From IMG/VR virus record IMGVR_UViG_2758568729_000001, positions 1-64,000 of that record: 64,000 nt of DNA; one strand, given 5' to 3'. The notes beneath the pieces were generated by a model. That model made no database searches and was not told the origin of the DNA. It saw only the letters and a list, made by a program, of their open reading frames with translations. This document shows, in pieces, positions 7,855-51,056 of the stretch. The stretch comes from a virus. Taxonomy: Duplodnaviria; Caudoviricetes. The position numbers were made by a program, and so were the translations under genes. The first letter of the stretch is position 1, and each line of letters begins with the position of its first letter.

Positions 7855-7907
7855 CATCTACTAAGTTACAGTACGGCAGGCATGATCGCTATCAGATCTA
7901 TCAAGTT
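7855..7907 (-). promoter_or_regulatory. Double-box promoter heading the operon that contains the RNA-repair genes
   Basis: AACTTGATAGATC and AACTTAGTAGATG 40 bp apart; TAACTT -10 overlaps second box. Confidence 0.75.
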
Positions 7908-8197
7908 TGTGTGAGATTACTAGGCCGACTTGCACTTGGCGAGCGCGGCGATAGTCGCCAACGCGCGGAACAACGCCCGAATCTGCTCGGGAGTGAGCGC
8001 AGCCAAGTCCCCGCCGGTCAACCGCACGTCGAGACTCAGCCCCACCAGCACGCCCATGTGATTCCGGACGACGCGTTGGCGAGACACCACAGGCTCAGGC
8101 ACGCGGGGCACCACCGGCCGAGACAACCGGAGGACGTGCGACCTACTCGGGTCGATGCCGATCGCGGCGAGCGTCCGGGCCACACCCACGTGGGTGC

Positions 8198-8551
8198 TCA
8201 ACGGGGGCCACCGCCATCGGCTTCGCGTTCGGCAATGCGTTCCAATGCCTCGTTGTAGTGGCCGCGAGCCCTCGGTGGCGTGGCTTTCCGGGCGGGCTCA
8301 TCTCGGCCCGCGTGTGGGCTGCACGCGGCGCCGTGGCTGGCCTTCCAGCCATGCCCGGTTGCCGTGACCAGCCACCAGGACTTGTTCTCCCCGATCAGTT
8401 CGCCGCCCACGTCGCAGCGGCGCACCGTGGGGATCAAGGGGTGGGGGCCACTGACAACGAACAGGCCGCTCGCTGGCGCGGGACCCTGGACCGGGTTGAC
8501 CACGGCGCCGAGGTTGTCGAGGCTGATCTCGGGAGGTATGGGCTGCGTCAT
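8198..8551 (-). CDS. Hypothetical protein
   Basis: ATGA overlap; MTQPIPPE. Confidence 0.5.
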   Translation of the reverse strand: MTQPIPPEISLDNLGAVVNPVQGPAPASGLFVVSGPHPLIPTVRRCDVGGELIGENKSWWLVTATGHGWKASHGAACSPHAGRDEPARKATPPRARGHYNEALERIAEREADGGGPR

Positions 8552-8916
8552 CGGATGCCCGCCTTGCTGGCCGCGCCCTCGCGGTTTGTCAGTCCGGCGA
8601 TCCACGCCGGGGCTCCGCTGTTCGGGTCACCCTCGGTCTGCCGCTTTCGCAACCGGGCCGCGAGTTCGGTCAGCCGGGCCGCGAACCGTTCGAGGTGGTC
8701 CGCGTCCTCCACGTTGATCCCGCCGACTTGGATCACCCCGCCCAGGTCTACGACGATCACCGCCCGGTCGTTGGTGCCGACGAGTTGTGCGTGCCCCTGC
8801 GGGTCGGACAGGTAGACGCCGGGCGCCAACCCTCGGCTGTCGTCGGTGTGCATGTTGGCGGCGGCGAGCGCGGACAGGTCGTCATCCTCGGGCGCGGGCA
8901 GTGCGGTGAAGTTCAT
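8548..8916 (-). CDS. Hypothetical protein
   Basis: Operon context. Confidence 0.6.
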   Translation of the reverse strand: MNFTALPAPEDDDLSALAAANMHTDDSRGLAPGVYLSDPQGHAQLVGTNDRAVIVVDLGGVIQVGGINVEDADHLERFAARLTELAARLRKRQTEGDPNSGAPAWIAGLTNREGAASKAGIR

Positions 8917-8919
8917 GGG

Positions 8920-9588
8920 TTACGCCGCCTTCCGGACGGTGGACTGCTGCTGGGCGATGAGCGCGTCGACCTGCGCGCAGGTGAGTCGCCTGATGACCAA
9001 GCGGTGCTGGCGGTAGACCTGCCAGCCGTAGTCGGTCAGCGAGTAGTCACGGGAGTAGCCGTCTCCGGAGAGGGCACCTTCGCTGAAGATTCCCTTCGCG
9101 ACCAGCGACAGGACCGTCTGCCGTTCCTGGTGGTCGCCGTGGAAATGGGCGGTCGACGCCCAGGTCTTCCCACCGGATTCCGCCGCGCGCTCGATCTCCT
9201 CGGCCTGCTTCTCGGAAAGCCGTACACCCCTCGGGGTCGGCTGCTTCGCGTCTTTGGCCGGGATCGGCTTGGCGGCGGCCTCAGCCTCCGCAACCAGCTC
9301 AGCCGGCGCATCCCACGGGCTGCGGCGGTACTGGAACACCAACTCGCCGTACGTGTGCCGCTGCTCGGTCGACCAATCGGCGATCCGGGTGCGTCGCGCC
9401 TTGTGAGTCGGTACGAGGGTGAAGTTTCCGCCGCCGGTTGACTGGCACTCCTGGCCGAATCCGCGCCGGCAGGTCGGGCAGATGACGGCGTCCGATGCCA
9501 TGTAGTAGAGGCGCGTCTGCCGGTAGTCGCCGTTGGCAGCTTCGATCGAGGTGTGGACAAGGTCGACGCTGGTGATCGTGGTGGTCAT
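8920..9588 (-). CDS. Zinc-finger plus winged-helix-like protein
   Basis: CPTC..C...H finger; C-terminal LVAKG...LTDYG wing signature; GGAGG RBS. Confidence 0.65.
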   Translation of the reverse strand: MTTTITSVDLVHTSIEAANGDYRQTRLYYMASDAVICPTCRRGFGQECQSTGGGNFTLVPTHKARRTRIADWSTEQRHTYGELVFQYRRSPWDAPAELVAEAEAAAKPIPAKDAKQPTPRGVRLSEKQAEEIERAAESGGKTWASTAHFHGDHQERQTVLSLVAKGIFSEGALSGDGYSRDYSLTDYGWQVYRQHRLVIRRLTCAQVDALIAQQQSTVRKAA

Positions 9589-9620
9589 CGGCTTGCCCTC
9601 CTGCGGGTCGGCGCTACTTG

Positions 9621-9673
9621 CATCTACCAATCTACGCCGTCCGCCACGATGAAGCTAGTTTATCTATCAAGTT
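9621..9673 (-). promoter_or_regulatory. Double-box promoter
   Basis: AACTTGATAGATA and AGATTGGTAGATG 40 bp apart; TAGATT -10. Confidence 0.7.
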
Positions 9674-9724
9674 AGGCCAAGATCTTTCCGCAGGTCGCAG
9701 GCAACCCGCTGTACCGTGACGCGG

Positions 9725-9761
9725 GGGAGCCCCGGCCGCATATGGCGTGGCCGGGGCTCCC
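9725..9761 (-). terminator. GC-rich hairpin after the 9-aa micro-ORF
   Basis: GGGAGCCCCGGCC / GGCCGGGGCTCCC inverted repeat. Confidence 0.55.
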
Positions 9762-9772
9762 TTCGGTGTGGG

Positions 9773-9802
9773 TCAGACCCACTCGAACGTGCCTCGCTTC
9801 AT
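9773..9802 (-). CDS. Candidate 9-aa micropeptide MKRGTFEWV
   Basis: AAGGAGG RBS 8 nt upstream; only obvious ORF between promoter 9866-9918 and hairpin 9725-9761. Confidence 0.45.
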   Translation of the reverse strand: MKRGTFEWV

Positions 9803-9865
9803 GCGGCCCCCCTCCTTGGTTCGCGAGCCCTCCCTGCGCTGCCCCTCGGCAACACCTCGCCGTTG

Positions 9866-9918
9866 CATCTATCAAATTAAGTGATGCGTACGTCAAACAC
9901 AAGGACATCTATCAAGTT
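9866..9918 (-). promoter_or_regulatory. Double-box promoter
   Basis: Boxes 40 bp apart; TTGTGT-N17-TAATTT. Confidence 0.75.
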
Positions 9919-10524: not shown

Positions 10525-11054
10525 ATCTCCGTCCGCCCCCGCCGCCAGTACGTCAGCGAGTTCGGGCACAACTGACAACCGCTCACCGGCGGCTCACCAG
10601 GCTTCGGGGCCCACGGCTTCCCCTCGCCGCAGCACATGCCGTCCTCGCGCGGCGCCGGGATGACCGGGGGAGCGGGCACCGCGGCCGGCGGGTCGACGGG
10701 CTGCGGGTTCCGGCCCCGTCGCCCCCACCAGTCACCGGTGTTCAGCTTGTGAGCGGGCGCCGGGTCGTAGTCGTCGGGCGACCAGCCGGGGCACATCGCG
10801 TCCAGGGCGGCGCGCAGCTCCCCTGCCGGTTCCACCCGCACGTCGAGCCGGTTGCCCTCGGTCCCGCTGTCCACGTACTCGCCGAGCTGCCACGTCGCGG
10901 CGGTTTGGGCGGCGGTCAGCGGGCCGGTGACCGCGAACTCCCGGCGCTCCCCGGTTCCCTGAGCGCCGGCCAGGTACAACAGGTGGACCACGGTTGACAG
11001 GCTCTCGACGCCGGGGACGGTGACGTACACGCGGGGCAGGGTCGGATCGGTCAT
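10515..11054 (-). CDS. Hypothetical protein with C-terminal Cys cluster
   Basis: MTDPTLPRVYV...CQLCPNSLTYWR; stop is the T8-A9-G10 of tRNA-Val. Confidence 0.6.
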   Translation of the reverse strand: MTDPTLPRVYVTVPGVESLSTVVHLLYLAGAQGTGERREFAVTGPLTAAQTAATWQLGEYVDSGTEGNRLDVRVEPAGELRAALDAMCPGWSPDDYDPAPAHKLNTGDWWGRRGRNPQPVDPPAAVPAPPVIPAPREDGMCCGEGKPWAPKPGEPPVSGCQLCPNSLTYWRRGRTEMPV

Positions 11055-11613: not shown

Positions 11614-12363
11614 GTGCATGATGGGCCGGTGGTAGAGAACCCAACTCCCCGCCGCCGGGTGGCGACCGAGTTGAAACGGCTCCGGGAGACGATCGGCGTA
11701 CTCGGCGACGATGTTGCCGCCGCCCTCGGTTGGTCGCAGTCGAAGGTGTCGCGCGTCGAGACCGCCCGGATCGGGATCAACCTCCGGGACCTCGCCACGC
11801 TGCTGCACTACTACGGCGCCCCGTTGGAGGTTCACGCCGAACTGATGGCCGCGACCGCCGACGCCGAGGGCGTCCCCGGGGCGTGGATCGTGCAGGCCAG
11901 CGGGCCACGTCATCCCCGAGCCGGGACCCAACCGATCGGATCCCGCGCCACCTCTGTCCGCCAGTACAGCCCGCTCACCATCCCCGGCCAGTTGCAGCCC
12001 GCCGCTGACCCCAGCTCGCCGAGCTACACGCTCCTGCTGGACGCACGCGTGTTCCTCTCGTGGCCAGGTGACGTGAGCCGCCGGCAGGTCCACGCCCTCC
12101 GGGACCGCGCACAGAAGCCCGGGATCGTCGTCAAGGTGATTCCCCTCGGGGTCGAGCAGGCAGTTACCGCGGCAACGCCGTTCACGATCTACGAGTTCCC
12201 TGCCGCCCCGACCGTTGTCCACGTAGCGACTCAAACGGCGGACCTCTACCTGTCGGCGGCTACCGACGTCCGTACCTATGGGGATGTCTTCGATCGACTC
12301 GTGGCCGACGCGCTTGACATCTCGGCTCCGGTGCAGGGATTCGAACCCCGATTAGGCGGTTAA
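11614..12363 (+). CDS. XRE HTH / DUF5753 (Scr1-type) regulator
   Basis: RRRVATELKRLRE...WSQSKVSRVET; IPGQLQ; PFTIYEF. Confidence 0.8.
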   Translation: MHDGPVVENPTPRRRVATELKRLRETIGVLGDDVAAALGWSQSKVSRVETARIGINLRDLATLLHYYGAPLEVHAELMAATADAEGVPGAWIVQASGPRHPRAGTQPIGSRATSVRQYSPLTIPGQLQPAADPSSPSYTLLLDARVFLSWPGDVSRRQVHALRDRAQKPGIVVKVIPLGVEQAVTAATPFTIYEFPAAPTVVHVATQTADLYLSAATDVRTYGDVFDRLVADALDISAPVQGFEPRLGG

Positions 12364-15929: not shown

Positions 15930-16160
15930 CCAACTCGGGGAGTTAAGTAGAAGTTCCATGCTTTCGGTTGACCTTGGGGGGTCCGCCTAGCGTGCTTGGA
16001 TCACGAAATCGGTTCATGATCCGGAAACATGAGGTCAACCTGAACGGCCACTCGGGTCAGGATCAGTAAGGACCATTGATCCACCCCACACGAGGCGCCT
16101 ATGTTGGGCCACCTCAGCGGTTTGACCAGCTCAACCCGCCCGACCTGGGGGAAGGTCACC

Positions 16161-16598
16161 ATGTCACGACAGATCATCACCGTCATCACCGACGACCTCG
16201 ACGGCACCGAAGGCGCTGAGACCGTCCATTTCGCCTTCGAGGGCCGCGAGTACCGAATCGACCTCAGCGACCACAACCGCCGCCGACTGCTGGCCCGCCT
16301 GGAGCCGTACATCAACGCCGGGTTGCCCGTCCGCGGTGACCGCACCGCGCAGGCACCGGCGCAAGACCGGGCCAGGCGTGCACAGCTCCGAAAGATGCGG
16401 GACTGGTGGAACACCAACCACACCGCGTTGGGGCTGCCCGAGCCGAAGGGCTACGGGCGGATCCCGGCCAAGGTAGAGGAGGCGTACCGGGTGCACGGCA
16501 ACCGGCAGGTGCCGGTGGTTGCTCGCCCGGTGGAACCGGTCGTGCCGCGGTTGCGTGTGGTGCCGCCGATCCCCGAGGCTACGTTCGCCGCCGGGTGA
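16161..16598 (+). CDS. lsr2: Lsr2-family nucleoid protein
   Basis: DDLDG...ETVHFAFEGREYRIDLS..N; C-terminal MRDW...GRIP.KV.EAY. Confidence 0.9.
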   Translation: MSRQIITVITDDLDGTEGAETVHFAFEGREYRIDLSDHNRRRLLARLEPYINAGLPVRGDRTAQAPAQDRARRAQLRKMRDWWNTNHTALGLPEPKGYGRIPAKVEEAYRVHGNRQVPVVARPVEPVVPRLRVVPPIPEATFAAG

Positions 16599-17263: not shown

Positions 17264-17381
17264 ATTGCGACAACCCCGGCCGGCGGCGGGCGTGTGCTGC
17301 CGCCGGCCGGGTGTCGTTGTATATGCCATCCGCTGTGGAGTTGAGATCGAACATTCCCGCCGGCCGAAGTCGGGGGATGAG

Positions 17382-17454
17382 CAGGGGTGACAGGACTTGA
17401 ACCTGCTGCCTGCGGTTTTGGAGACCGCCGCTCTACCTGTTGAGCTACACCCCT
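17382..17454 (-). tRNA. tRNA-Trp(CCA), first gene of the array
   Basis: GCGGT-CTCCAAA-ACCGC. Confidence 0.93.
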
Positions 17455-17650: not shown

Positions 17651-17742
17651 GTCCGTGCTCCCTGCGTCGGTGTTGCTGTGAAAGGTAGTTCCTGGGCTGT
17701 CGCGTCGGCAACGTGTTTCCGGTGCTGCGGCCCGTGACGTCA

Positions 17743-17787
17743 ACGGTACGGGTCGACCGCCGTCAACGCAATGACATCTACCAAGTT
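17743..17787 (-). promoter_or_regulatory. tRNA-array promoter with single upstream box
   Basis: AACTTGGTAGATG then TTGCGT-N17-TACCGT. Confidence 0.7.
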
Positions 17788-26852: not shown

Positions 26853-26905
26853 TATCTACCAAGCTACGGCATGACCAGGCTCGCGGCAATCACATCTACC
26901 GAGTT
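26853..26905 (-). promoter_or_regulatory. Double-box promoter
   Basis: Boxes 40 bp apart; TTGCCG-N17-TAGCTT. Confidence 0.75.
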
Positions 26906-33514: not shown

Positions 33515-33760
33515 CTACTGCGGCCCGTCAGTCTTCGCGGGTTCCTCCTTGAGGATCTTGTCGAGCCAGGTGTCTGACCAGACGTGGCCCATACCGCGCA
33601 GGATCGCGGCCTTCCTTATGTTCTCGGCGTACGCGGCGCGCGCTTCGGCGGCCAGCCTGTCTCGCGGGCCGGCAAGGATCCGTTCGGCTTCGTTTCGTGC
33701 CTGCTGATACTCGTCACCCGCTTTCTTGAGTCGCGCGAGCCGCGCGCTGTGATCGGTCAT
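33515..33760 (-). CDS. Small helical, possibly DNA-binding protein
   Basis: 81-aa ORF divergent from promoter 33833. Confidence 0.55.
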   Translation of the reverse strand: MTDHSARLARLKKAGDEYQQARNEAERILAGPRDRLAAEARAAYAENIRKAAILRGMGHVWSDTWLDKILKEEPAKTDGPQ

Positions 33761-33832
33761 GCCGGGGATCATGTCATGAACCGGTTGGGAAAGCAATTAG
33801 CCAACATGTTCCCATCATGTTTGCCAACCTGG

Positions 33833-33869
33833 TTGACATGGCCCAACGCAGCCCGTAACTTGGTAGATG
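33833..33869 (+). promoter_or_regulatory. Strong sigma70-like promoter with single downstream box
   Basis: TTGACA-N17-TAACTT overlapped by AACTTGGTAGATG. Confidence 0.8.
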
Positions 33870-33934
33870 TAAGGCGAACGGCCACGGCCGGTGCTACCAA
33901 CACCACCGAGGCCCTGATCGGGAGAGGCCCCGAT

Positions 33935-34988: not shown

Positions 34989-35075
34989 CCCGCTCCCGGT
35001 CGGGCCGTCCACAAGGCGGCGGCCCGGCCCGCACTACCAAACCCAACCCATTCCACTCGCAAGAGGAGCACGGCC

Positions 35076-35431: not shown

Positions 35432-35521
35432 CGACCTCCGGTCGGGCCGCCGCCTACGGGACGGCCCGGCCCGCACTACCCGAACCCAAACCCAGAGCAC
35501 AACCACGTCAAGGAGCACGCC

Positions 35522-35713
35522 ATGAACACCGTCATCGTCACCCCGGCCGACCGCCGCACCAACCGAATCGACGCCCGCAGCAACCGGCGCCGCCGGATCC
35601 AGCCCACCAACGACCGGCACGCGAACCTCCGCCCGCAGCCGCTCAACCGGCCGGCCCGCCGTAACACCGCCGCCGCCGCGATCGCGGAGTCGCTGAACGG
35701 GGTCACAGTCTGA
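35522..35713 (+). CDS. Arg-rich small protein, paralog B2
   Basis: AAGGAG RBS; NRRR..Q...DR..NLRPQ.L.RP.R. Confidence 0.7.
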   Translation: MNTVIVTPADRRTNRIDARSNRRRRIQPTNDRHANLRPQPLNRPARRNTAAAAIAESLNGVTV

Positions 35714-36767: not shown

Positions 36768-36862
36768 CCCGCACCCATATCGGTGCACCCCCATGTGGCC
36801 GCGCACGTCGGCATGCTCGCCGCCGCGCTCGGGGGTGAGGGCACATCGAGCTGTAGTGACTG

Positions 36863-36894
36863 GCCCCCGAGGTGATTCTCGGGGGCTTCTCTTT
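36863..36894 (+). terminator. Intrinsic terminator
   Basis: GCCCCCGAG/CTCGGGGGC plus TTCTCTTT. Confidence 0.7.
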
Positions 36895-36899: not shown

Positions 36900-36952
36900 A
36901 ACTTGGTAGATGTTCTGTCGTTCAGTCGGTCAAACTGGTAACTTGGTAGATG
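36900..36952 (+). promoter_or_regulatory. Double-box promoter
   Basis: AACTTGGTAGATG at 36900 and 36940. Confidence 0.8.
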
Positions 36953-38188: not shown

Positions 38189-38195
38189 CTCGATG

Positions 38196-38223
38196 GCCCC
38201 CGGGTGTCACCGGGGGCTTTCTT
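38196..38223 (+). terminator. Intrinsic terminator
   Basis: GCCCCCGG/CCGGGGGC plus TTTCTT. Confidence 0.7.
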
Positions 38224-38230: not shown

Positions 38231-38283
38231 AACTTGGTAGATGTTCTGGCGGTAGCAAGGGAGATGCGGTAACTTGATAGATG
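38231..38283 (+). promoter_or_regulatory. Double-box promoter
   Basis: Boxes at 38231 and 38271. Confidence 0.8.
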
Positions 38284-40440: not shown

Positions 40441-40493
40441 AACTTGGTAGATGTACTGGCTGTGACTGACCGTTCATGCTAACTTGATAGATA
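40441..40493 (+). promoter_or_regulatory. Double-box promoter
   Basis: Boxes at 40441 and 40481. Confidence 0.8.
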
Positions 40494-40521: not shown

Positions 40522-42057
40522 ATGACCACTCGCAACCCCACCAAGGCGCAGCTCGTCGCACTGCTCGACGCCATCGCGAACGGCAATGAGGCGTTGCACA
40601 AGTACCGCAAAGACATGATCGACCGAATGGAGCTCGCCGGTCTCCTGGATGGTTACGCCGTCACCGACGCGGGCCGCGTGGCCGCTCACCGCAGCGACCC
40701 GACCGGGTACGCCCTGGCGATTGGCGTCGAGCCGGACGCGCACATCGCCGAGGGCAACGATCTCCGCACGGAGGCCGAGCGGGTTGCCGCCGGGCTGTCT
40801 TCGCAGATGATCGGCACCCTCGGTACGGGGCACGCCAGTGCGCATAGCGCCACGGTGATCGGTCGCCCGCAGGTCATGAAGGCGCTGCGCAGCCGTGGTC
40901 TGATCGGCAACGATGACCGCTGGACTCGACTCGGCTTGGAGGTTGCCGCCATCGTCCTCGGTGGCCGAGTGTGGTCGATCGACGAGCTGCACGTCATGGC
41001 GCTGAGTGATGAAGCGCACGCGGAAGCGCTCGCGATGAACGCCGAGCGCGACACGCAGTTGATCGAGCCCGCGCCTGCGCCGGCCCCGCTGACCACGCGA
41101 GACCTGAAGGTTGGCATGCGCGTCAAGATGCCCGCCGTGTGGTGCACGTCGGACGCACCGTGCGCCCAGTACCGCATCGTCACGAGCGACGCGCAACGCG
41201 AGCCGTACCACAGCCACTCCGTGGAATTCGACGGCGTTGGCGAGGTGTGGCGCTCGGACGCCGAGTGGGAGATCGAGTCCGCCGCGCACGCCGCGCTGGC
41301 GACCGGCCTGCCGCACGGCGTCGGACCGGCGTGCCTCGACGGATGCGTAACCGAAGGCGGGATCACGACGTGCCTCGACGGGTGCCCGCGCTTCGCGGCA
41401 GTCGCCGCAGCGAACCGCTCCACCGTCCGCCCGATCGCGGTCGGCGACCGCGTCCGGGGCCGCGACGTCACCATGGGAAGCACCGTGGAGGGCGCGGTCA
41501 CCGGCATCCTGTACCCGCGCGGACTCGGCTACTACCAGGACGAGCCGACCGACAGGCCGGTCCACTCGCGCAGGTACCACATCACGGCCGACGACGGCCG
41601 CACCCGAATCGTGGAGTGCGCCGAGCGGATCGAGCCGCCCGCCGCCCCGGAGCCGGACGAGATGAGCCAGGGGGAGCGCGACCAGCGCTCGTCCGACTAC
41701 TGGCAGGCCGCCACCGCCAACCTGCCGCGCGTACCCGCGTTCGAGCCGCCCGCGCCCGCCGACGGAGTGAGCGTCGACCAGTGGATCGCCGAGCAGGTGG
41801 CGCAGCTCAGCGAGAACGAGCTGCTGATGGTCAAGGGCGTACTGGACGACATTGCTGCTGGCCGACCGGTGGAGCACTTCGCGGTGGGCACGAAGGTATA
41901 CGTCGGCTCGTACGGCACTACCGAGTTCGTCGTTCAGGGAACGGCGCCGTGGCACGAGAACGGCGTGGTGTCGCGCAAGGTCGAGATCCGGAGCACGACG
42001 GGCAACCTTTCCGGCCACGTCGACCCGCGCGAGTTGCGGCGAGTCGACGAGTCATGA
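40522..42057 (+). CDS. Multidomain hypothetical protein (two wHTH-like plus SH3/KOW-like modules)
   Basis: GGAGG RBS; LKVGMRV, IAVGDRV, FAVGTKV repeats. Confidence 0.7.
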   Translation: MTTRNPTKAQLVALLDAIANGNEALHKYRKDMIDRMELAGLLDGYAVTDAGRVAAHRSDPTGYALAIGVEPDAHIAEGNDLRTEAERVAAGLSSQMIGTLGTGHASAHSATVIGRPQVMKALRSRGLIGNDDRWTRLGLEVAAIVLGGRVWSIDELHVMALSDEAHAEALAMNAERDTQLIEPAPAPAPLTTRDLKVGMRVKMPAVWCTSDAPCAQYRIVTSDAQREPYHSHSVEFDGVGEVWRSDAEWEIESAAHAALATGLPHGVGPACLDGCVTEGGITTCLDGCPRFAAVAAANRSTVRPIAVGDRVRGRDVTMGSTVEGAVTGILYPRGLGYYQDEPTDRPVHSRRYHITADDGRTRIVECAERIEPPAAPEPDEMSQGERDQRSSDYWQAATANLPRVPAFEPPAPADGVSVDQWIAEQVAQLSENELLMVKGVLDDIAAGRPVEHFAVGTKVYVGSYGTTEFVVQGTAPWHENGVVSRKVEIRSTTGNLSGHVDPRELRRVDES

Positions 42058-42992
42058 GCCGAACTGGGGCCGAGCTGCCCAGCCTCGGGCAGCTCGGCCT
42101 GTTCGACCCCGGGTGGTGCCAGCGCTGGACCAACGGCAAGAGCCTGTGGCTGCCGACCGGGGATGAGCGGTTCAACCCGAAGCGGCACACCGTACGGGCC
42201 ATCCCGGAGCAGGTGGCCCGTGCGTTCATCTCGACCCACCACTACAGCCACTCGTACCCCGCCGCACGCCTGAGGTACGGCCTCTTTGAGGGCTGCCACC
42301 TGGTCGGCGTAGCGGTGATCGGGCAGCCGATGCACCGGCAGGTCACCGGCAAACCGTTCCCGACGCTGGGCAAGACTGCGGCCGAGTTATCCCGGTTCGT
42401 TTTGCTCGATCCGGTTCCGCCCCCGGCGGAGAGTTGGCTCCTCGGCCGGGTGTTCCGGCTGGCCGCCGCCGACGGGCTCCGTGGCCTGGTCGCGTTCAGC
42501 GACCCCATGCCCCGGCTGGCTATCAACGGTCAGTTGATCATGCCTGGTCACGTCGGCACCATCTACCAGGCGACCAACGGCCGCTACACCGGCCGGGCCA
42601 CCCGGCGCACCCTCGTCGTGCTGCCGGACGGGACCGTGTTCAGCGAACGCAGCCTGCAAAAGATCCGGGGCTGCGAACGGGCCGACGGCGAGCCCATGTC
42701 CCGGCTGGTGACGTATGGCGCCGAGCCGTTCTCCCCGTACCTGCCGCCGGTGGGTTGGCTGCCGGGGGAGTGGAACCGGTTGGACCGGTGGGCCGACCTT
42801 GACCTGCGGGGCCGGCGGAAGGTGTGGCTAAAGCACGCGCTGACCTCGATCGGCGCCCGCCGGGCGCGACACCGGGGCAACCACCGGTTCGTCTGGCCGC
42901 TCGGAGACCGGTCGCAGCGTCGCCGCACGGTGATCGCCCTGGACGCGCAGCCCTACCCCAAGACGACAGATCCGTGGGACCTGGCGGCGTAA
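42054..42992 (+). CDS. Mom-family DNA adenine modification protein
   Basis: A.AFI..HHYS.SYPAA.LRYGL, LVGVAV, ELSRFVL, ESW.L, AFSDP, GH.GTIYQATN..YTG. Confidence 0.82.
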   Translation: MSRTGAELPSLGQLGLFDPGWCQRWTNGKSLWLPTGDERFNPKRHTVRAIPEQVARAFISTHHYSHSYPAARLRYGLFEGCHLVGVAVIGQPMHRQVTGKPFPTLGKTAAELSRFVLLDPVPPPAESWLLGRVFRLAAADGLRGLVAFSDPMPRLAINGQLIMPGHVGTIYQATNGRYTGRATRRTLVVLPDGTVFSERSLQKIRGCERADGEPMSRLVTYGAEPFSPYLPPVGWLPGEWNRLDRWADLDLRGRRKVWLKHALTSIGARRARHRGNHRFVWPLGDRSQRRRTVIALDAQPYPKTTDPWDLAA

Positions 42993-44093: not shown

Positions 44094-44146
44094 AACTTGA
44101 TAGATATTGCCGCCAGCGTGACCTTCCTGCGGTAACTTGGTAGATG
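44094..44146 (+). promoter_or_regulatory. Double-box promoter
   Basis: Boxes at 44094 and 44134. Confidence 0.8.
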
Positions 44147-44176: not shown

Positions 44177-44677
44177 ATGACCGCCAACGACCGCCTCTGG
44201 GCCGCATTCACCGCCTCCCACCCCGCCGAGGCCGCCCTGATCTGGGCCAACGAAACGTCGGCCCGACCCAACGCGCCCCTCGGCTACGCCTACAGCTCCG
44301 TTGCTGTCGCCGACGAAGCCGACACCAACCCCGAGCAGGCGTTGTGCCTCGTCGCCGACTACCTGACCAGCGTCCAGGACCAGACCATCGGCGGGCGCCC
44401 CCTCCGCGACTACCTCCCCCTCAAGCGAGACGAATACCTCGCCTGCCCCGGGCACCGCACGGACAACACCGCCGGCTACGTCATCCGACTCACCGTCGCC
44501 GGGGGAGAGGTCGTCAAGACCCCGGACGGGCGAACCGGCATCGACGCCTTCGCCGTCGAGTGCGAGCCTCACTGGGGCAACTACGACAAGGCGATCAACG
44601 CCGCGTGCGCGCTCACGGATGAGCACACGTACGCCGTCACCGACCGCCTGTACCGGTGCGGTCACCGCTCGTACTGA
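44177..44677 (+). CDS. Hypothetical protein
   Basis: GGGAG RBS; single-gene cassette. Confidence 0.65.
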   Translation: MTANDRLWAAFTASHPAEAALIWANETSARPNAPLGYAYSSVAVADEADTNPEQALCLVADYLTSVQDQTIGGRPLRDYLPLKRDEYLACPGHRTDNTAGYVIRLTVAGGEVVKTPDGRTGIDAFAVECEPHWGNYDKAINAACALTDEHTYAVTDRLYRCGHRSY

Positions 44678-44738: not shown

Positions 44739-44792
44739 AACTCGGTAGATGAGATTGCCGGATCTCTGCCCCATGCCGTAGATTGATAGATA
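44739..44792 (+). promoter_or_regulatory. Double-box promoter
   Basis: Boxes at 44739 and 44780; TTGCCG-N18-TAGATT. Confidence 0.7.
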
Positions 44793-44833: not shown

Positions 44834-45562
44834 GTGACCACAACCAAAACCCACACCGCCGAACATCCCGGACCCATCACCCTGGACGCCCGACTCGCCA
44901 GCGGTGCCATCACCGTAACCGTCGAAGACCGCACCCACGCCGTCATCACCATCGCCACCGCCGACAACGACGGGACCTCGGCCAACGCGGTCAACGCCGC
45001 CCGCATCAACGACAGCGGCACGAAGATCGCGGTCGGCGTCGACACGGCCGGCGGCGGCAGCGGCGGAGTCGTCATCCAAAGCGGCGGTGTCCAGCGGAAC
45101 ATGTTCAACACCGGTGGCGGCGTCATGATCGCCGGGAACAACTACGGGGTGATCTCCACCGGCAACGGGAGCGTTGTCATCGGCGGCGGGGCCGTCGTGA
45201 TCGGCGGCAGCCCGATCTTTATCGAGGCCAAGCTCCCCGTCGGGTCGTCGTTGCTCGCGGAGACGACCGACGCCCGAGTGGAAACGACCGGCAGCCTGGA
45301 CCGGGCACAGGTCCGCACCATGTCCGGGCACATCCGGATCGACGCCGTGACCACCCCGGACCTGCACACCATGTCGGGTCACATCGACATCCGCGCCCTG
45401 TACGGCGACGGCCGGGCCGAAACCATGTCCGGCCGGATCACCGTGGTCGCGGCGGTCGAGTGCGCACTGCGCGCCCGGTCCATGTCGGGCGACATCGAGA
45501 TCTCGGGCGCCCGCGTCGACCTGGACGCCAGCACCATGTCCGGCCGGCTCCGGACCCGTTGA
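44834..45562 (+). CDS. DUF4097-like beta-strand repeat protein
   Basis: Repeated (T/S)MSG.I.I. Confidence 0.8.
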   Translation: MTTTKTHTAEHPGPITLDARLASGAITVTVEDRTHAVITIATADNDGTSANAVNAARINDSGTKIAVGVDTAGGGSGGVVIQSGGVQRNMFNTGGGVMIAGNNYGVISTGNGSVVIGGGAVVIGGSPIFIEAKLPVGSSLLAETTDARVETTGSLDRAQVRTMSGHIRIDAVTTPDLHTMSGHIDIRALYGDGRAETMSGRITVVAAVECALRARSMSGDIEISGARVDLDASTMSGRLRTR

Positions 45563-45591: not shown

Positions 45592-45951
45592 ATGACCGAC
45601 CCCAGCGCCCACTGGGCCCCCCCGGGTGACGCCCGCCCACCTGGCAGGGCTGAACTCGCCGCCATGCTCCGCGCCGTCGCCAACCGCGGTGTCCTCACCC
45701 CGGCGATGGGGCGCCCGGAGGTGCTGGCCGGGATCAGGCGTAAGCGCTGGGCCACCACCCCGACGGATGGCACCCCGTCCACGCTCACCGAATTCGGTCA
45801 CCGTGTGACCCGGGGGGCGAATCCCGAGGCGTACGTGGCGGCGGTGCCCGACGAGCAGGTGCAGGCGTGGGCCGGTCTGATCGCTGCGGCCGAACGGGCA
45901 CCGGAGTCGACCGACCCGCCCGCTGATCACCGAGGAGGTGAAGCGCCGTGA
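45592..45951 (+). CDS. wHTH-like hypothetical protein
   Basis: LTEFG...P..Y..A motif shared with 40522 and 43384. Confidence 0.6.
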   Translation: MTDPSAHWAPPGDARPPGRAELAAMLRAVANRGVLTPAMGRPEVLAGIRRKRWATTPTDGTPSTLTEFGHRVTRGANPEAYVAAVPDEQVQAWAGLIAAAERAPESTDPPADHRGGEAP

Positions 45952-46907
45952 CAACCACGTTGACATATCCTGGTCCGGGTATCGCCTACCGCAACCCTGG
46001 ACCCGGAGCCGCCCGCATGCCCGAAGTTCCGTTTCTGACCCGGACCGACCTGGCCGCCATCGGCACAGAGGTATGGGGGGTGCCAGTCACCGAAACCAAG
46101 ATCACCGAGCTGGTTCGGGAATCACGGCCGGGCGGCAAATACGAGGACGACCCGTTCGTGGGGCCGGACTCCTACCTCGGCAACGCCCCCTGGTGGGCCA
46201 AGGGCCGGGGCCGGACGGTCACCGCCTGGTTCAAGCGGCACATGCCACCCCCCGTGGTCGACGCCGAAGCAGTCGCTGCCGAACGGCAACTCGAACTCGC
46301 CGACGTGCTCTGGTTGGAAGATGTCGCCGCGCTCGGCGGCGTACAAGAGAAGACCATCACCGACCACCTCTACCAGTCACAGGAAGAGGTCGGCGGGAAG
46401 CGCGGCGCAGCCAAGAAGCGGGGCAAGTGGGCCGACGACCCGTTCCCGGCACCGGAGGAGAAGCGGGCTGGACGGCGGGTGTACTGGAAGGCGGAGAGGC
46501 GAGACGAGATCCTGGCCTGGTTCGGCCGGCACCCGCGGCGGCAGGTTGGTGACGGAATCGGCGGGCCGAGCGGAATCACCCGGGCGGAGGCGCAGGGGTT
46601 GCAGCCGCCAAAGCCGCCGAAGCCGCCGAAGCCGCCAGTAAATGCGTCCCCACGCGAGTACCTGGATTGGGCGGCTGGCCACGCCCTTGACATCTACCTG
46701 GCCGGCGACACGGCCAGGGCTATCGACTCGTTCGCGGCCGACCTGGTGCAGCACGAGGGAACGACTCACATCGTTGAGGACCCGGAGTTCCGGTCAGCGA
46801 TGGCGGATGCGGCGGCGAAGGGGTGGGAGGCTTTCAAGGCGGCCATGTCTGGATGGCCGCTGCGGAAGCCGTCGGGGCGGTCGTCGAAGCCGCGCGTCAA
46901 GTCCTGA
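45948..46907 (+). CDS. Protein with tandem AlpA/MerR-like HTH domains
   Basis: Two repeats ending DDPF..P....G....W......(I/V).AWF.RH. Confidence 0.65.
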   Translation: MTTTLTYPGPGIAYRNPGPGAARMPEVPFLTRTDLAAIGTEVWGVPVTETKITELVRESRPGGKYEDDPFVGPDSYLGNAPWWAKGRGRTVTAWFKRHMPPPVVDAEAVAAERQLELADVLWLEDVAALGGVQEKTITDHLYQSQEEVGGKRGAAKKRGKWADDPFPAPEEKRAGRRVYWKAERRDEILAWFGRHPRRQVGDGIGGPSGITRAEAQGLQPPKPPKPPKPPVNASPREYLDWAAGHALDIYLAGDTARAIDSFAADLVQHEGTTHIVEDPEFRSAMADAAAKGWEAFKAAMSGWPLRKPSGRSSKPRVKS

Positions 46908-46956: not shown

Positions 46957-47009
46957 AACTTGATAGATGTACTAGCGCTTGAGTCCTTCGTGCGGTAACT
47001 TGGTAGATG
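46957..47009 (+). promoter_or_regulatory. Double-box promoter
   Basis: Boxes at 46957 and 46997. Confidence 0.8.
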
Positions 47010-47044: not shown

Positions 47045-47575
47045 ATGACCACCGCCACCACCGCCACCACCTACAGCGGCGCCAACGGCACCACCTTCGA
47101 CCACATCTCCGTCACCGCCCTCACCGAACGCGACGTCGACCGCATGGAACGCGTCGAGTCCGCCCTGTGCCGCTGGGCCCGCGTCACCCCCATGCACCAC
47201 ACCCAGGAGGATGAGATCTGCGGCGTCATCAACGACGCGCTGATCCTCCTGGAGGAGTACGGCACCGGTGCCGTCGAGAACGCCGCAACCCCTGCTGACG
47301 CCACATACGCCGAGGCCGCTGCGTGGGCGACCGTCCGCAAGGTCACCGCGCAGGCCCTTCGGTTCCCGCTCCCGATCCAGCCGACCGAGCAGATCAGTAC
47401 CGAGGAGCGGACCGCCCGCAGCACCGCACACATCCACCGCGCCGGTACCGCGCTCCTCGCCGGCAAGCAGCCCGAGGCCCTGTACTGGCTCGACGCCGCC
47501 GAGGCCGTCGACCCGGCCCGGGACTACGACGGGCTGTACCACCTGGTCGTCACCCCGTGGGCGATCTGCCGGTAA
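47045..47575 (+). CDS. Hypothetical protein
   Basis: AAGGAG RBS; C-terminal DAAE...RDYD.L. Confidence 0.65.
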   Translation: MTTATTATTYSGANGTTFDHISVTALTERDVDRMERVESALCRWARVTPMHHTQEDEICGVINDALILLEEYGTGAVENAATPADATYAEAAAWATVRKVTAQALRFPLPIQPTEQISTEERTARSTAHIHRAGTALLAGKQPEALYWLDAAEAVDPARDYDGLYHLVVTPWAICR

Positions 47576-48944: not shown

Positions 48945-48996
48945 AACTCGGTAGATGTATTGCGTTCAGCTTGACGGTACCGTAACTTGATAGATG
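48945..48996 (+). promoter_or_regulatory. Double-box promoter
   Basis: Boxes at 48945 and 48984; TTGCGT-N17-TAACTT. Confidence 0.8.
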
Positions 48997-49025: not shown

Positions 49026-49442
49026 ATGGCCACCACACGCACCGCCCCAAAGGCCACCACCGGCACCAAGGCCATCAACACCGCCCTCGACGCCGGGTTC
49101 GAGATCACCGAACACGGCGCGACCAACGGCCGCTACCGCCACCACCTCGTCGCCGCCGACGGACGCGCACTCATCATCGACACCGCACTCGGCACCGGCC
49201 GGTTCCTCAACGCCGAAGGCCGTAGCCGCTCCTACTGGAACGCAAGCTACCTCGGGGCGCGCAGCCTCAAGGCGCTCCGGGAACTGCTCGCCGCCGGAAG
49301 CAAGACCCCAGAGCAGATGCCGGCACAGGCGGCCGAGCAACGCAGCTCCGAACTCACGGACATGCACCTCGCGGCCCTGGACAACGAGCGCCGGCTGCGC
49401 AACGACCTGCGCCGCGAACGCCGCCACTTCTACGGACGCTGA
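49026..49442 (+). CDS. Hypothetical protein
   Basis: GGAGG RBS. Confidence 0.65.
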   Translation: MATTRTAPKATTGTKAINTALDAGFEITEHGATNGRYRHHLVAADGRALIIDTALGTGRFLNAEGRSRSYWNASYLGARSLKALRELLAAGSKTPEQMPAQAAEQRSSELTDMHLAALDNERRLRNDLRRERRHFYGR

Positions 49443-49590
49443 TCAAAACTCCAGAACGGCCCCCGCTCCTGGGGGACTCACCCGGTTGAGGGGTCACAGC
49501 CCCAACCAGTACCGGGGAGACTGCGGACCCCATGTGGTGTCCCTGGGGAGCGGGGGCCACGACCAAGGTCAGCGCAGAGGAGAACCCGAG

Positions 49591-49854
49591 ATGGCCCGCA
49601 AGACCACCGTCCCGACCTGTGGCGACTGCCAGGCCACCAACCAACCGCAGGGCCGCGCCCGGGGCCTCTGCATCGTCTGCTCGCCCCTCACCGTCCTGCA
49701 CCTCAGGCTTGCCGGCGACCAGGCCACCTACTGCGGCCGGAGCATGTACATCGTCACCAACGACCCGGACCAGGACTCCACCATCAACGACCTGGACCAC
49801 AAGGTGAACTGCCCCGACTGCCTGTGGCAGCTTCGGCACCGCCGCAGCCACTGA
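49591..49854 (+). CDS. Small zinc-finger protein
   Basis: CGDC...RGLCIVC; H...CG...CPDC. Confidence 0.65.
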   Translation: MARKTTVPTCGDCQATNQPQGRARGLCIVCSPLTVLHLRLAGDQATYCGRSMYIVTNDPDQDSTINDLDHKVNCPDCLWQLRHRRSH

Positions 49855-49880
49855 CCCGACCACCCGCCTGGGAGACCGAG

Positions 49881-50243
49881 ATGACCGACACCGACCGGCC
49901 CATGACGTTCATCGAACGCCAGAAGGAAGCCGCCCTCGACGAGCTGCGTGAGCGGGGCGAGGAACGCCGACGCATCGCGGAAATCGTCCTCGGCAAGAAC
50001 CGCGGCCGGGACCAGGTCACCGAGGTCATCAACCTCAGCGGCGACTACCTGGTGGAGGTCGCCACCCGGGACAGCGGCGTGTACTGGGCGTCCCTCGTTG
50101 GCGGGAAGCGCACCGGCCAGTTCCACGTCCGGCAGGAGGACGCGATTCTCCACCTGATCGCCGCCCGGTACGACCCGAACCCGAACACGAACACCTCGGC
50201 CGCGTTCTACGCCGGCCGGGTCCTCGGCGTCTCCACCGACTGA
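49881..50243 (+). CDS. Hypothetical protein
   Basis: GGGAG RBS. Confidence 0.6.
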   Translation: MTDTDRPMTFIERQKEAALDELRERGEERRRIAEIVLGKNRGRDQVTEVINLSGDYLVEVATRDSGVYWASLVGGKRTGQFHVRQEDAILHLIAARYDPNPNTNTSAAFYAGRVLGVSTD

Positions 50244-50257
50244 CGAGGACAGCCAGA

Positions 50258-50572
50258 ATGCCGACCCGACTCGACGCCGCCCGTGAAGCCGCTACCACCG
50301 CCGCGACCAACGCTCTCGCTGGTCGCGGCGTGGAAGCGGTCCTCTGCGACCAGCTCGCAGCCGAGATCGTCGCCGTGCTCCTCATCGCCCGGTCCGAACG
50401 CGGGCTGACGTGGCTGCGCGGGATGCGGGCCACGGCCAGGCAGAACGAGCTGATCAACCGGCACCACACGATCAGCGCCCTGACCCTGTTCGCCACCCGA
50501 ACCGCCCTGCAAGACGCGATGGTTGCCGCCGCTGATGCGCTGGTGGCCGCCCTTGGCCGCCGCACGAACTGA
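50258..50572 (+). CDS. Hypothetical protein
   Basis: GAGGA RBS. Confidence 0.55.
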   Translation: MPTRLDAAREAATTAATNALAGRGVEAVLCDQLAAEIVAVLLIARSERGLTWLRGMRATARQNELINRHHTISALTLFATRTALQDAMVAAADALVAALGRRTN

Positions 50573-50594
50573 CCCGACCGTGAAGGAGACCAGC

Positions 50595-50984
50595 ATGTCC
50601 GACACCCTGACCCTCGCCCTGGCCGCGTACGACGAGGCCGACCCGGACAACCCCGCCGGCCGCCGCGTTCACGCTGCGGCCCTGTTCCGGGAGGCCACCG
50701 GCGCCACCCTCCGTGACTCGCTGGCCGCTGTGGACGAGGTCATCGCGGAGCGGACCACGTTCGAGAACCTGGAGCAGTTCCGGCAGCCCACCACGTTCGG
50801 GTGGCGGTACGAGTTCCCGAACAACCGGATGGTGACGGTCATCAACGACGACACCGCCCCGTTCAGGTTCGAGGTGCTGTCCGACGACCCGGCCGACGTG
50901 GCGACGGGCAACATCCGCCGGGGGCTCACCACCGAGCAGGTGGAGGCAAAGTTGGTGGCGATCTACGGGATGCCGGCGGTCTAG
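50595..50984 (+). CDS. Hypothetical protein (N-terminus weakly L7/L12 CTD-like)
   Basis: AAGGAG RBS; FREATGATLRDSLAAVD. Confidence 0.6.
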   Translation: MSDTLTLALAAYDEADPDNPAGRRVHAAALFREATGATLRDSLAAVDEVIAERTTFENLEQFRQPTTFGWRYEFPNNRMVTVINDDTAPFRFEVLSDDPADVATGNIRRGLTTEQVEAKLVAIYGMPAV

Positions 50985-51003
50985 CCGGGGGAGCGGTTCA
51001 AGG

Positions 51004-51056
51004 AACTTGATAGATGCTCTTGCCTCACGTGGTACGCGTGTGTAACTTGATAGATG
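51004..51056 (+). promoter_or_regulatory. Double-box promoter
   Basis: Boxes at 51004 and 51044; TTGCCT-N17-TAACTT. Confidence 0.8.

What the first reader, a model, noticed from the sequence alone, without database searches (positions are those of the whole stretch)
7855..51056. Element-wide regulon: 13-bp box AACTTGRTAGATG in 40-bp-spaced pairs bracketing promoters
Seen: 12 tandem pairs 39-41 bp apart (minus: 7855/7895, 9621/9661, 9866/9906, 26853/26893; plus: 36900/36940, 38231/38271, 40441/40481, 44094/44134, 44739/44780, 46957/46997, 48945/48984, 51004/51044) and two singles (17775, 33857). All are intergenic, asymmetric and oriented with transcription. The downstream box overlaps the -10 (TAACTT/TAGATT/TAGCTT/TAATTT) and the upstream box sits just before a TTGNNN -35 where one is visible; the spacer sequence is not conserved. 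Established analogies: mycobacteriophage L5 13-bp operators/stoperators and zygotic-induction regulons of conjugative plasmids. Inference: one element-encoded factor coordinates RNA repair, DNA modification and dozens of small genes, probably de-repressed on entry into a new host.
Basis: partly seen in the sequence, partly recalled or inferred. Interest (0 to 1): 0.8.

Follow-up and report, generated by a model that had tools for sequence, protein, structure and literature searches.

The report
Paired-box early promoters of a prophage
A 152-kb prophage in a Micromonospora-family actinomycete starts at least 16 early transcription units from look-alike promoters carrying one 13-base box. Related prophages of another genus keep the same layout, so one still unidentified phage protein probably switches the whole early programme.

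Summary
The box AACTTGRTAGATG occurs 25 times in the window (0.31 expected). Genome-wide, good matches occur only in one ~152-kb prophage: 14 pairs 39-41 bp apart and two singles. All are intergenic and point with transcription.

The element is a tailed prophage, not a conjugative plasmid. The upstream box (U) lies at -51..-39, 3 nt before a weak -35. The downstream box (D) runs from -11 to +2 and supplies the -10 (TANNTT). D is also the left arm of an imperfect palindrome (D', +9..+18) centred on the start site.

Four related prophages (three in named Micromonospora strains) keep the geometry while the spacers diverge. They also keep three promoter classes: U+D; D-only with a consensus -35 (central promoter); and U-only (35-tRNA array).

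A separate CI/Cro-type switch beside the integrase uses a different palindromic operator, so the box belongs to a second regulatory tier.

Best reading: one phage-encoded, probably monomeric DNA-binding protein that represses from D/D' and helps from U. This is inference, and the protein is not identified. Two candidates are conserved in all five elements: 45948-46907 (tandem MerR/Xis-like winged helix) and 33515-33760.

The scan had noted this regulon before only in overlapping windows of this same genome.

The parts
7855..7907 (-). U (7895) + D (7855) promoter; first gene 7558-7824, operon continues to the RNA-repair genes (PNKP 3462-4313)
9621..9673 (-). U (9661) + D (9621) promoter; first gene 8920-9588, whose N-terminus matches Phage_zn_bind_8
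9866..9918 (-). U (9906) + D (9866) promoter with no ORF in the next 277 nt
17730..17787 (-). U-only promoter: U box 17775-17787, TTGCGT-17-TACCGT, no D box. It drives a leader and the 35-tRNA array (first tRNA, Trp, at 17381-17454)
26853..26905 (-). U (26893) + D (26853) promoter, TTGCCG-17-TAGCTT; genes 26351-26818 and the BldC-like gene 26167-26325
33820..33900 (+). Central promoter P_R: TTGACA-17-TAACTT with a D box (33857-33869), no U box, CCAAC..GTTGG palindromes upstream, and a conserved leader with an inverted core CTACCAA 27 nt after the D core
36900..36952 (+). U+D promoter behind a terminator hairpin (36862-36887); DUF6573 and YgjP-like peptidase genes
38231..38283 (+). U+D promoter behind a terminator hairpin (38195-38218); 38314-39351 and DpdA 39348-40436
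40441..40493 (+). U+D promoter; 40522-42057 and Mom-like 42054-42992
44094..44146 (+). U+D promoter; gene 44177-44677
44739..44792 (+). U+D promoter (41-bp spacing, TTGCCG-18-TAGATT); genes 44834-45562, 45592-45951 and candidate regulator 45948-46907
46957..47009 (+). U+D promoter; gene 47045-47575
48945..48996 (+). U+D promoter (39-bp spacing, TTGCGT-17-TAACTT); gene 49026-49442
51004..51056 (+). U+D promoter with a clear inverted D' (CCGCTACCGAGG, 51061-51072); gene 51088-51456
45948..46907 (+). Candidate box-binding protein (319 aa): two tandem MerR/excisionase-type winged-helix units. The N-terminal unit is conserved in all five related prophages, and the gene lies inside a U+D cassette
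33515..33760 (-). Candidate regulator (81 aa): long helix plus a short helix-turn-helix. It is 47-55% identical in the four related prophages (68% to a metagenome protein) and always divergent from P_R. It more likely reads the CCAAC..GTTGG palindromes

Best explanation
The boxes are operator sites built into the early promoters of a large temperate phage.

Shown or read directly from sequence:
- Each unit is a host sigma-70/HrdB-type promoter (-35 T-N-G-C/A, 17-18 nt, -10 TANNTT).
- Box U lies at -51..-39.
- Box D lies at -11..+2 and is itself part of the -10.
- An inverted, weaker copy D' lies at +9..+18, so D/D' straddles the start site.

Inferred:
- One phage-encoded protein reads the asymmetric 13-14-bp box, probably as a monomer or a flexibly linked oligomer, because sites occur as direct repeats 40 bp apart, as inverted repeats, and alone.
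- Bound at D/D' it occludes RNA polymerase and shuts the promoter.
- Bound at U, next to the -35, it helps polymerase or helps a second copy load at D.

This gives three logics, all conserved across genera:
- D-only with a consensus -35: the central immediate-early promoter, on by default and then shut.
- U+D: about 14 delayed-early cassettes for RNA repair, DNA modification, replication and many small genes.
- U-only: the 35-tRNA array, helped and never shut.

The factor sits one tier below a separate CI/Cro-type lysogeny switch. My preferred candidate is the tandem winged-helix protein 45948-46907. This identification is weak.

The confidence of 0.4 is for this dual (repress from D, help from U) reading. 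The general claim that these are promoter-embedded sites of one phage-encoded DNA-binding factor I hold at about 0.85.
For: - Enrichment and confinement to the prophage.
- Fixed geometry in all 16 units.
- The -10 assignment is anchored by TTGAC(A/G/C)-17-TAACTT in the orthologous central promoter of all five elements.
- D-box end to start codon is typically about 28-41 nt (three outliers: an evident gene-call artefact at 36940, 55 nt at 142865, and 277 nt in the ORF-less 9866 cassette), with a GGAGG ribosome site.
- 42 U-D pairs in five prophages have spacings of 40 (35 pairs), 39 (4), 41 (2) and 42 (1). Information content is high in U, -35 T/G, -10 and D/D', and about zero in the spacer.
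- Promoters of one orthologous gene keep the boxes while the spacers differ.
- The U-only promoter, about 320-350 nt before tRNA-Trp of a 35-tRNA array, is conserved in three elements.
- D' scores as a reverse-oriented box.
- The CI/Cro operator GTGTCA-N4-TGACAC occurs four times only beside the integrase and differs from the box.
- The candidate 45948-46907 is conserved in all five elements and unique in the genome. Both its repeats model as MerR/RacA/BldC/excisionase-like winged helices (Z 4.6-6.5).
Against: - No transcription start, binding or expression data exist.
- The sign of regulation is inferred from position only.
- D-only and U-only are each one orthologous promoter, so each counts as a single evolutionary case.
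- A protein on double-stranded D and a helper role at U in the same promoter pull in opposite directions unless affinities or timing differ, which cannot be seen in sequence.
- In the M. costi, 15K316 and G396 elements U (AAYTCGGTAGAAG) differs systematically from D (AACTTGATAGATG), so two related readers are possible.
- Fold matches of the candidate are below Z 8, and Pfam and PDB sequence searches give nothing.
- About 130 prophage proteins have no domain assignment, so the real factor may be none of those examined.
Confidence: 0.4

Rival explanations
1. Repressor only. The box protein is a silencing repressor of the L5 gp71 or P1 C1 kind. D/D' is the operator proper, and U is an auxiliary operator that gives cooperative binding across the promoter on the same helix face (40 bp).
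For: - D/D' covers -11..+18, the classic occlusion position.
- The sites are asymmetric, dispersed and co-oriented, like L5 (PMC9283540).
- A temperate phage with a separate promoter for each cassette must silence every one of them.
Against: - A perfectly kept U with no D at the tRNA-array promoter in three elements has no role in this model.
- The strongest promoter (P_R) lacks U.
- A separate CI/Cro switch with its own operator exists.
Confidence: 0.3
2. Promoter-recognition code. The boxes are read by host RNA polymerase carrying a phage specificity factor, such as a MotA/AsiA-like or Mor/C-like activator, or the highly conserved phage WhiB-like protein bound to sigma region 4. D is a core-promoter element rather than a repressor site.
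For: - U ends 3 nt before the -35, where WhiB7-type and class II activators act (my own knowledge).
- The -35 hexamers are suboptimal in about half of the U+D units.
- The WhiB-like gene is 87% and 71% identical in two relatives.
- The conserved block from -12 to +6 resembles phage-specific promoters.
Against: - The same 13-mer at -45 and at -5 is not what a single recognition surface on polymerase would need.
- P_R has a full consensus -35/-10 and needs no factor, yet keeps D.
- The WhiB-like gene itself lies behind a U+D promoter.
Confidence: 0.12
3. RNA-level signal. In read-through transcripts the D/D' inverted repeat (AACUUGGUAG-N9-CUACCGAGUU) folds into a hairpin that serves as a processing, insulation or antitermination site, and the boxes are conserved for that reason.
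For: - Strict co-orientation with transcription.
- A 7-10-bp stem is possible.
- Arginine-rich small proteins that recall lambda N are encoded just after P_R.
Against: - Fixed distances to -35 and -10, and U as a lone half-site.
- The unit's own transcript would start inside the stem.
- G/A changes in the left arm are not compensated in the right arm.
- No Rfam family matches.
Confidence: 0.05
4. A host transcription factor (for example BldC or another conserved actinomycete regulator) binds the boxes, and the phage has plugged its early genes into a host circuit.
For: - The same box is used in hosts of at least two genera.
- The prophage carries a near-copy of a host BldC-like gene.
Against: - No box with up to 1 mismatch and a partner occurs anywhere in the 8.6 Mb of host DNA.
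- In 401 genomes of the family, multi-site clusters occur only where the prophage is present.
Confidence: 0.03

Closest known systems
Mycobacteriophage L5 / cluster A repressor gp71 with 13-bp operators and stoperators (PMC9283540, PMC6550527)
   Same: - A 13-bp asymmetric site with more than twenty copies spread over the phage genome.
- Sites lie in intergenic DNA, and orientation is tied to the direction of transcription.
- A monomer with two DNA-binding domains reads the site.
- The hosts are actinobacteria.
   Different: - Here every site sits at a fixed promoter position, in 40-bp pairs plus an inverted third copy. No promoter-less 'stoperator' sites were seen.
- A separate CI/Cro switch exists.
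- No gp71-like protein was detected among the candidates.
- U-only and D-only classes suggest more than silencing.
Phage P1 C1 repressor and its dispersed asymmetric 17-bp operators (my own knowledge, not checked in a paper here)
   Same: A large temperate phage in which one protein reads an asymmetric operator at many separate early operons across the genome, with a multi-layer immunity system.
   Different: - Different sequence and protein.
- P1 operators are single or overlapping bivalent sites, not 40-bp direct pairs bracketing -35 and -10.
Lambda CI at OR2/OR3 of PRM, and phi29 p4 (one protein activates or represses according to site position; my own knowledge)
   Same: A site next to the -35 helps polymerase, and a site over the -10 or start blocks it, so position gives the sign of regulation.
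   Different: - Those use symmetric sites and dimers at one or two loci.
- Here an asymmetric box is used at about 16 promoters genome-wide.
Excisionase/BldC-type winged-helix proteins that bind direct repeats head to tail (structures 6ama, 6amk, 8dgl, 8c3t)
   Same: - The predicted fold of both repeats of 45948-46907.
- Such proteins read asymmetric sites as monomers, which suits direct repeats.
   Different: - Known members bind adjacent repeats about 10 bp apart, not 40 bp apart.
- The fold match is only moderate (Z 4.6-6.5), and there is no sequence-family match.
Phage class-specific promoter boxes: T4 MotA box, Mu Mor/C sites (my own knowledge)
   Same: A phage-specific box near -35 to -50 marks one temporal class of promoters with a weak -35.
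   Different: Those promoters have one box each, with no second copy over the -10 and start site.

Membership tests
Tailed temperate phage (prophage) | Integrase plus terminase, portal and tail genes in one contiguous island | tested here: met
   large serine recombinase (Resolvase + Recombinase), Terminase_6N/6C, Portal_Mu and a 1168-aa tape-measure-sized protein; contiguous gene map of about 152 kb.
Sigma-70 (HrdB)-type promoter | -35 TTGACA-like and -10 TANNNT hexamers 16-18 nt apart, upstream of a gene with a ribosome site | tested here: met
   TTGAC(A/G/C)-17-TAACTT in five orthologous central promoters. The other units have T-N-G-C/A, 17-18 nt, TANNTT. The actual start sites are not testable here.
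L5 gp71-type operator/stoperator system | Many 13-bp asymmetric sites whose orientation follows transcription | tested here: met
   30 boxes, all co-oriented with the downstream genes.
L5 gp71-type operator/stoperator system | Sites in short intergenic gaps without a promoter, acting on elongation (stoperators) | tested here: not met
   every good box is at -51..-39 or -11..+2 of a promoter. No free-standing boxes between genes were found.
L5 gp71-type operator/stoperator system | Repressor homologous to gp71 (HTH plus Stoperator domain) | tested here: inconclusive
   no sequence match of the candidates to any solved chain, which include the TipsytheTRex repressor. Most prophage ORFs were not tested individually.
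MerR-N/excisionase winged-helix superfamily (for protein 45948-46907) | Beta-alpha-alpha-beta-beta-alpha winged-helix fold | tested here: inconclusive
   residues 28-102 have pLDDT about 90. Z 6.5 (rmsd 2.3, 58 aa) to a MerR-type regulator; Z 5.9 to TipAN, 5.4 to RacA, 4.7 to BldC; Z 5.2-5.3 for the second repeat. All are below the Z 8 guide value; no Pfam hit except weak ones in one distant homologue.
   phage structural genes and an integrase; no similar plasmid. A TraB/FtsK-like gene was noted by another reader, but it is not what defines the island.
Host-regulon site | The same motif upstream of host chromosomal genes | tested here: not met
   whole genome; 401 genomes of the family.

The most novel reading that the evidence does not exclude
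A previously undescribed family of small Xis/BldC-like winged-helix proteins, tandemly duplicated in this phage, reads one asymmetric box as a monomer. Purely through box placement (U only, D only, or U+D 40 bp apart) it sets always-on, early-then-off and pulsed expression for a 150-kb phage's whole early programme. That would be a position-coded temporal programme with no phage sigma factor and no phage RNA polymerase.
Probability: 0.2. Interest if true: 0.7.

Novelty: new variant of a known kind. Interest (0 to 1): 0.55.

Why it matters
- **A compact regulatory code.** Large actinophages and their prophages are almost unstudied at the level of gene control. Here the sequence alone gives about 16 promoters in three logic classes, and conservation across genera makes it credible.
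- **A short candidate list.** Only two conserved predicted DNA-binding proteins need testing first.
- **A possible second case.** If confirmed, this would be another example, after the L5 and P1 type of systems, of genome-wide control by an asymmetric operator. It would add a paired-site geometry not seen in those.
- **Practical use.** The promoters and the factor could make a ready orthogonal promoter/operator set for high-G+C actinomycetes such as Micromonospora and relatives.
- **A map of early genes.** The boxes mark which prophage genes (RNA repair, tRNAs, deazaguanine and Mom-type DNA modification, replication) are expressed together early.

Tried and rejected
- **Host regulator site: rejected.** There are no sites outside the prophage. 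In 401 genomes of the family, multi-site clusters occur only in three prophage-bearing genomes, and single hits equal the reversed-pattern control.
- **Known plasmid or phage relative: none found.** Megablast found no related plasmid or phage. The terminase is at most 36% identical to any isolated phage.
- **BldC-like gene (26167-26325) as the factor: rejected.** It is 92% identical to a host copy and absent from all four related prophages.
- **57449-58855 as the factor: unlikely.** It has no domain hit and no homologue in the relatives.
- **First gene after P_R (33935-34630): unlikely.** Its C-terminal winged helix is present only here and in one of two copies in the NPDC006766 prophage.
- **CI/Cro proteins as box readers: unlikely.** Their own palindromic operators are different.
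- **'Autoregulatory' reverse box before homologues of 45948-46907: discounted.** It lies inside the conserved N-terminal coding sequence.
- **Hairpin covariation between D and D': not seen**.
- **Known RNA families: only tRNAs found**.
- **Searches for more relatives gave little.** Viral contigs gave only the M. costi provirus.
- **Sequence searches of both candidates against solved structures gave nothing**.
- **Not tested:** papers on phiC31 early promoters and P1 C1 were not in the held library, so those comparisons rest on memory.

Full report
**Observation.** The partner of 44739 at 44780 has three mismatches and was recovered by alignment.

The window lies at 8,156,949-8,220,948 of a single 8.74-Mb contig. 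A scan of the whole genome shows that all good matches lie between genome positions 8,164,803 and 8,207,992. Two more minus-strand pairs, exactly 40 bp apart, lie at window+129487/129527 and +142865/142905. The other 8.6 Mb hold only scattered two-mismatch hits without partners.

So there are 14 pairs and two singles. All lie outside predicted coding sequences (0 of 30 inside, with at least 75% of the island coding). All point the same way as the gene downstream.

**What the element is.** Genes run leftward below 33.4 kb and rightward above 33.9 kb. The island runs from about genome 8,156,900 to 8,309,000 (about 152 kb). It carries:
- a large serine recombinase, a T4-type large terminase, a Mu-type portal and a 1168-aa tape-measure-sized protein;
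- 35 tRNA genes;
- HNH and GIY-YIG homing endonucleases;
- RNA-repair genes (PNKP, RNA ligase, RlaP), DpdA, Mom, SSB, a sliding clamp, RecT and a WhiB-like protein.

It is a large prophage, as an earlier follow-up in this scan also concluded. It is not a conjugative plasmid. No isolated phage is close: the terminase is at most 36% identical, and there is no nucleotide match.

**Anatomy of one unit.** I aligned all units on the downstream box.
- The base before the D box is T, which gives a -10 hexamer TAACTT, TAGATT, TAGCTT, TAATTT or TAAATT.
- A T-N-G-C type hexamer (TTGCCG, TTGCGT, TTGCCT, TGGCGG, TAGCGC ...) lies 17-18 nt upstream of the -10 and 2-3 nt after the upstream box.
- With the usual numbering, U covers -51..-39 and D covers -11..+2.
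- After D comes GTAAG and then CTACCGAG. Read on the other strand, CTACCGAG scores as a box.
- D is therefore the left arm of an imperfect palindrome, AACTTGGTAG-N9-CTACCGAGTT, centred near +3.5.
- A GGAGG ribosome site and the start codon typically follow about 28-41 nt after D; the exceptions are a gene-call artefact at 36940, 55 nt at 142865 and the ORF-less 9866 cassette.
- Several units are preceded by strong hairpins with T-rich tails, so the cassettes look insulated from each other.

**The two singles are informative.** The site at 33857 is a D-type box behind a perfect TTGACA-17-TAACTT promoter at the point where the two gene arms diverge. It has no U box. The site at 17775 is a perfect U-type box followed by TTGCGT-17-TACCGT with no D box. 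It lies 321 nt before tRNA-Trp, the first gene of the tRNA array.

**Relatives.** An exact-match scan with the extended D box found high-G+C hits only in Micromonospora genomes and in one provirus record from M. costi. I fetched four related prophages:
- M. costi;
- Micromonospora sp. NPDC006766;
- a 23.8-kb contig of Micromonospora sp. 15K316;

Their proteins are typically 35-80% identical to those here, and gene order is similar. All four show the same layout.
- U there reads AATTCGGTAGAAG or AATTTGGTAGATG.
- D reads TANNTTGRTAGWTGTAAS, followed by CTAYCGAG.
- Pooling 42 U-D pairs from the five elements, the spacing is 40 bp in 35, 39 in 4, 41 in 2 and 42 in 1.
- Information content is high across U, at the T and G of the -35, and across the -10, D and D'. 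It is about zero in the spacer.
- Promoters in front of one orthologous gene keep the boxes while the spacers are unalignable.

The central promoter is orthologous in all five: TTGAC(A/G/C)-17-TAACTT plus D, without U. Each has CCAAC..GTTGG palindromes upstream and a conserved leader. The U-only promoter recurs about 350 nt before tRNA-Trp of a 35-tRNA array in M. costi and in G396. The layout is therefore under selection and predates the split of these phages.

It is also rare. Among 401 genomes of the family, only three carry multi-site clusters, and single hits are no more frequent than for the reversed control pattern. Metagenome scans added nothing of high G+C.

**A second regulatory system.** Beside the integrase lie an XRE-type CI-like gene and a divergent Cro-like gene. 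Four copies of the palindrome GTGTCA-N4-TGACAC lie between and over their starts, and this cluster is found nowhere else in the genome. The classical lysogeny switch therefore has its own operator. The U/D box belongs to another tier.

**Who reads the box.** Domain searches of about 165 prophage proteins found these DNA-binding candidates:
- the CI-like gene, plus a divergent Cro-like gene whose only domain hit is sub-threshold (HTH_31, E = 0.09, 13.5 bits against a 27-bit cut-off);
- two more XRE proteins, one of them WhiJ-like, plus a further HTH_31 match in the right-hand gene set that I did not locate;
- an Lsr2-like protein;
- a WhiB-like protein;
- a zinc-finger N-terminus;
- an HTH at the end of a 576-aa protein.

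Most small genes have no assignment.

Comparison with the four relatives shows two unassigned proteins that are present in all five elements and unique in this genome.

*Candidate one: 45948-46907.*
- Its first ~100 residues recur in every element, and the unit is duplicated in tandem here.
- The family is tiny: 51 representatives in 1.8 billion proteins.
- The AlphaFold model gives two beta-alpha-alpha-beta-beta-alpha units. The first has pLDDT about 90.
- The best structural matches are MerR-type N-domains, RacA, BldC and excisionases, at Z 4.6-6.5. These are consistent but below the level that would be convincing on their own.
- Proteins of this fold that lack a MerR coiled coil bind asymmetric sites as monomers, which suits a box found in direct, inverted and single arrangements.

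*Candidate two: 33515-33760.*
- It has 81 residues and is 47-55% identical across the four related prophages.
- It is always divergent from the central promoter.
- Its model shows a long helix followed by a short helix-turn-helix.
- Its position next to the CCAAC..GTTGG palindromes makes those its more likely target.

*Other candidates.* The BldC-like gene (26167-26325) is 92% identical to a host gene and absent from the relatives. 57449-58855 has neither a domain nor homologues in the relatives.

**How it most likely works.** Shown: the geometry, the confinement to the prophage, and the conservation. Inferred: a phage-encoded protein binds the box.

A protein on D/D', from -11 to +18, would exclude polymerase. 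So D is most simply a repressing site, and the consensus central promoter carries only that. U abuts the -35, where activators act. A perfectly conserved U without D at the tRNA promoter in three elements argues that U works on its own, most simply as a helper.

This gives three conserved logics from one box. The central promoter is on and then shut. The cassettes are helped and then shut. The tRNA array is helped only.

I hold this dual reading at about 0.4. A repressor-only reading, with U as a cooperative auxiliary site on the same helix face, stands at about 0.3. A polymerase-specificity reading, with the WhiB-like protein as a possible partner, stands at about 0.12. RNA-level and host-factor readings are unlikely for the reasons given under rivals.

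**Comparison with known systems.** The nearest described system is the L5/cluster A repressor: a monomer with two DNA-binding domains, more than twenty 13-bp asymmetric sites, and orientation tied to transcription (PMC9283540). The present system shares those features. It fails one defining feature, because there are no promoter-less stoperator sites. It adds a paired geometry, an inverted third site, and a separate CI/Cro switch. P1 C1, lambda CI at PRM, T4 MotA and Mu Mor/C are functional analogies recalled from memory and were not tested here.

I class the finding as a new variant of a known kind: genome-wide control of a temperate phage by a dispersed asymmetric operator.

**Limits.**
- There are no expression or binding data.
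- My gene calls are home-made, from GC3-based scoring.
- The sign of regulation and the identity of the factor are inferences.

Noticed in passing
window 26167-26325 (-): A 52-aa BldC-like (MerR/excisionase HTH) gene, second in the U+D cassette at 26853. It is 92% identical to a host copy at genome 4727726-4727878 and 73% identical to another at 3992696-3992842. It is absent from the four related prophages, so it looks like a recently captured host developmental regulator.
   Followed up: partly
window 16101-16598 (+): An Lsr2-like xenogeneic-silencer gene (dimerisation plus DNA-binding domains) sits antisense inside the tRNA array. A 38%-identical homologue is in the NPDC006766 prophage. It could coat the A+T-richer promoter islands in the lysogen.
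   Followed up: partly
window 11659-12363 (+): A WhiJ-type regulator (HTH_31 + DUF5753), also antisense inside the tRNA array.
   Followed up: no
window 34788-35713 (+): Two paralogous gene pairs lie just after the central promoter. Each pair is a small acidic protein (34788-34988, 35264-35431) followed by an arginine-rich 62-63-aa protein (35076-35264, 35522-35713). The arginine-rich stretch recalls lambda N-type RNA-binding motifs.
   Followed up: no
window 33780-33905: The central promoter has CCAAC..GTTGG palindromes over and upstream of its -35. Its leader, conserved across five prophages, contains CTACCAA, a perfect inverted copy of the D core TTGGTAG, 27 nt downstream of it.
   Followed up: partly
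L119:6435-7374 (genome 8306435-8307374, outside the window): A CI-like XRE gene and a divergent Cro-like gene with four GTGTCA-N4-TGACAC palindromes, next to the large serine integrase (L119:7379-8920). This is the classical lysogeny switch of the prophage.
   Followed up: partly
L118:9418-9741 (-) (outside the window): A WhiB-like protein of the prophage, 87% and 71% identical to the copies in two related prophages. Among the prophage proteins compared with the relatives only a short HNH endonuclease (78-79%) and the capsid gene (59-79%) reach similar values. It lies in a U+D-driven replication operon with SSB and a sliding clamp.
   Followed up: partly
L128: about 10880-10990 (Micromonospora sp. 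15K316 contig): Four copies of GGTAGTTCC at about 22-bp period lie next to the central promoter. This iteron-like array shares the GGTAG core of the box. No equivalent array exists in the window's prophage.
   Followed up: no
window 9675-9690 and genome 8299866-8299880 (window+142918): The palindrome AAGATCTT, within GGAAAGATCTTG, lies a few bases upstream of the U box in two units that are 133 kb apart. It may be an extra operator or a trace of promoter duplication.
   Followed up: no
L124:19223-19235, L129:396-408, L149:728-740: A near-perfect box in reverse orientation lies inside the conserved N-terminal coding sequence (..DYQVL..) of the homologues of 45948-46907 in three related prophages. 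It may be coincidence of coding or an autoregulatory site.
   Followed up: partly
window 9725-9918 (-): The U+D unit at 9906/9866 has no ORF of useful size in the 277 nt before the next promoter. It may make a small RNA or a micropeptide, as another first-stage note proposed.
   Followed up: no
window 9367-9522 (-): The N-terminus of the first gene of the 9621 cassette matches Pfam Phage_zn_bind_8 (putative DNA-binding phage zinc finger, 25.4 bits, just over the cut-off).
   Followed up: no
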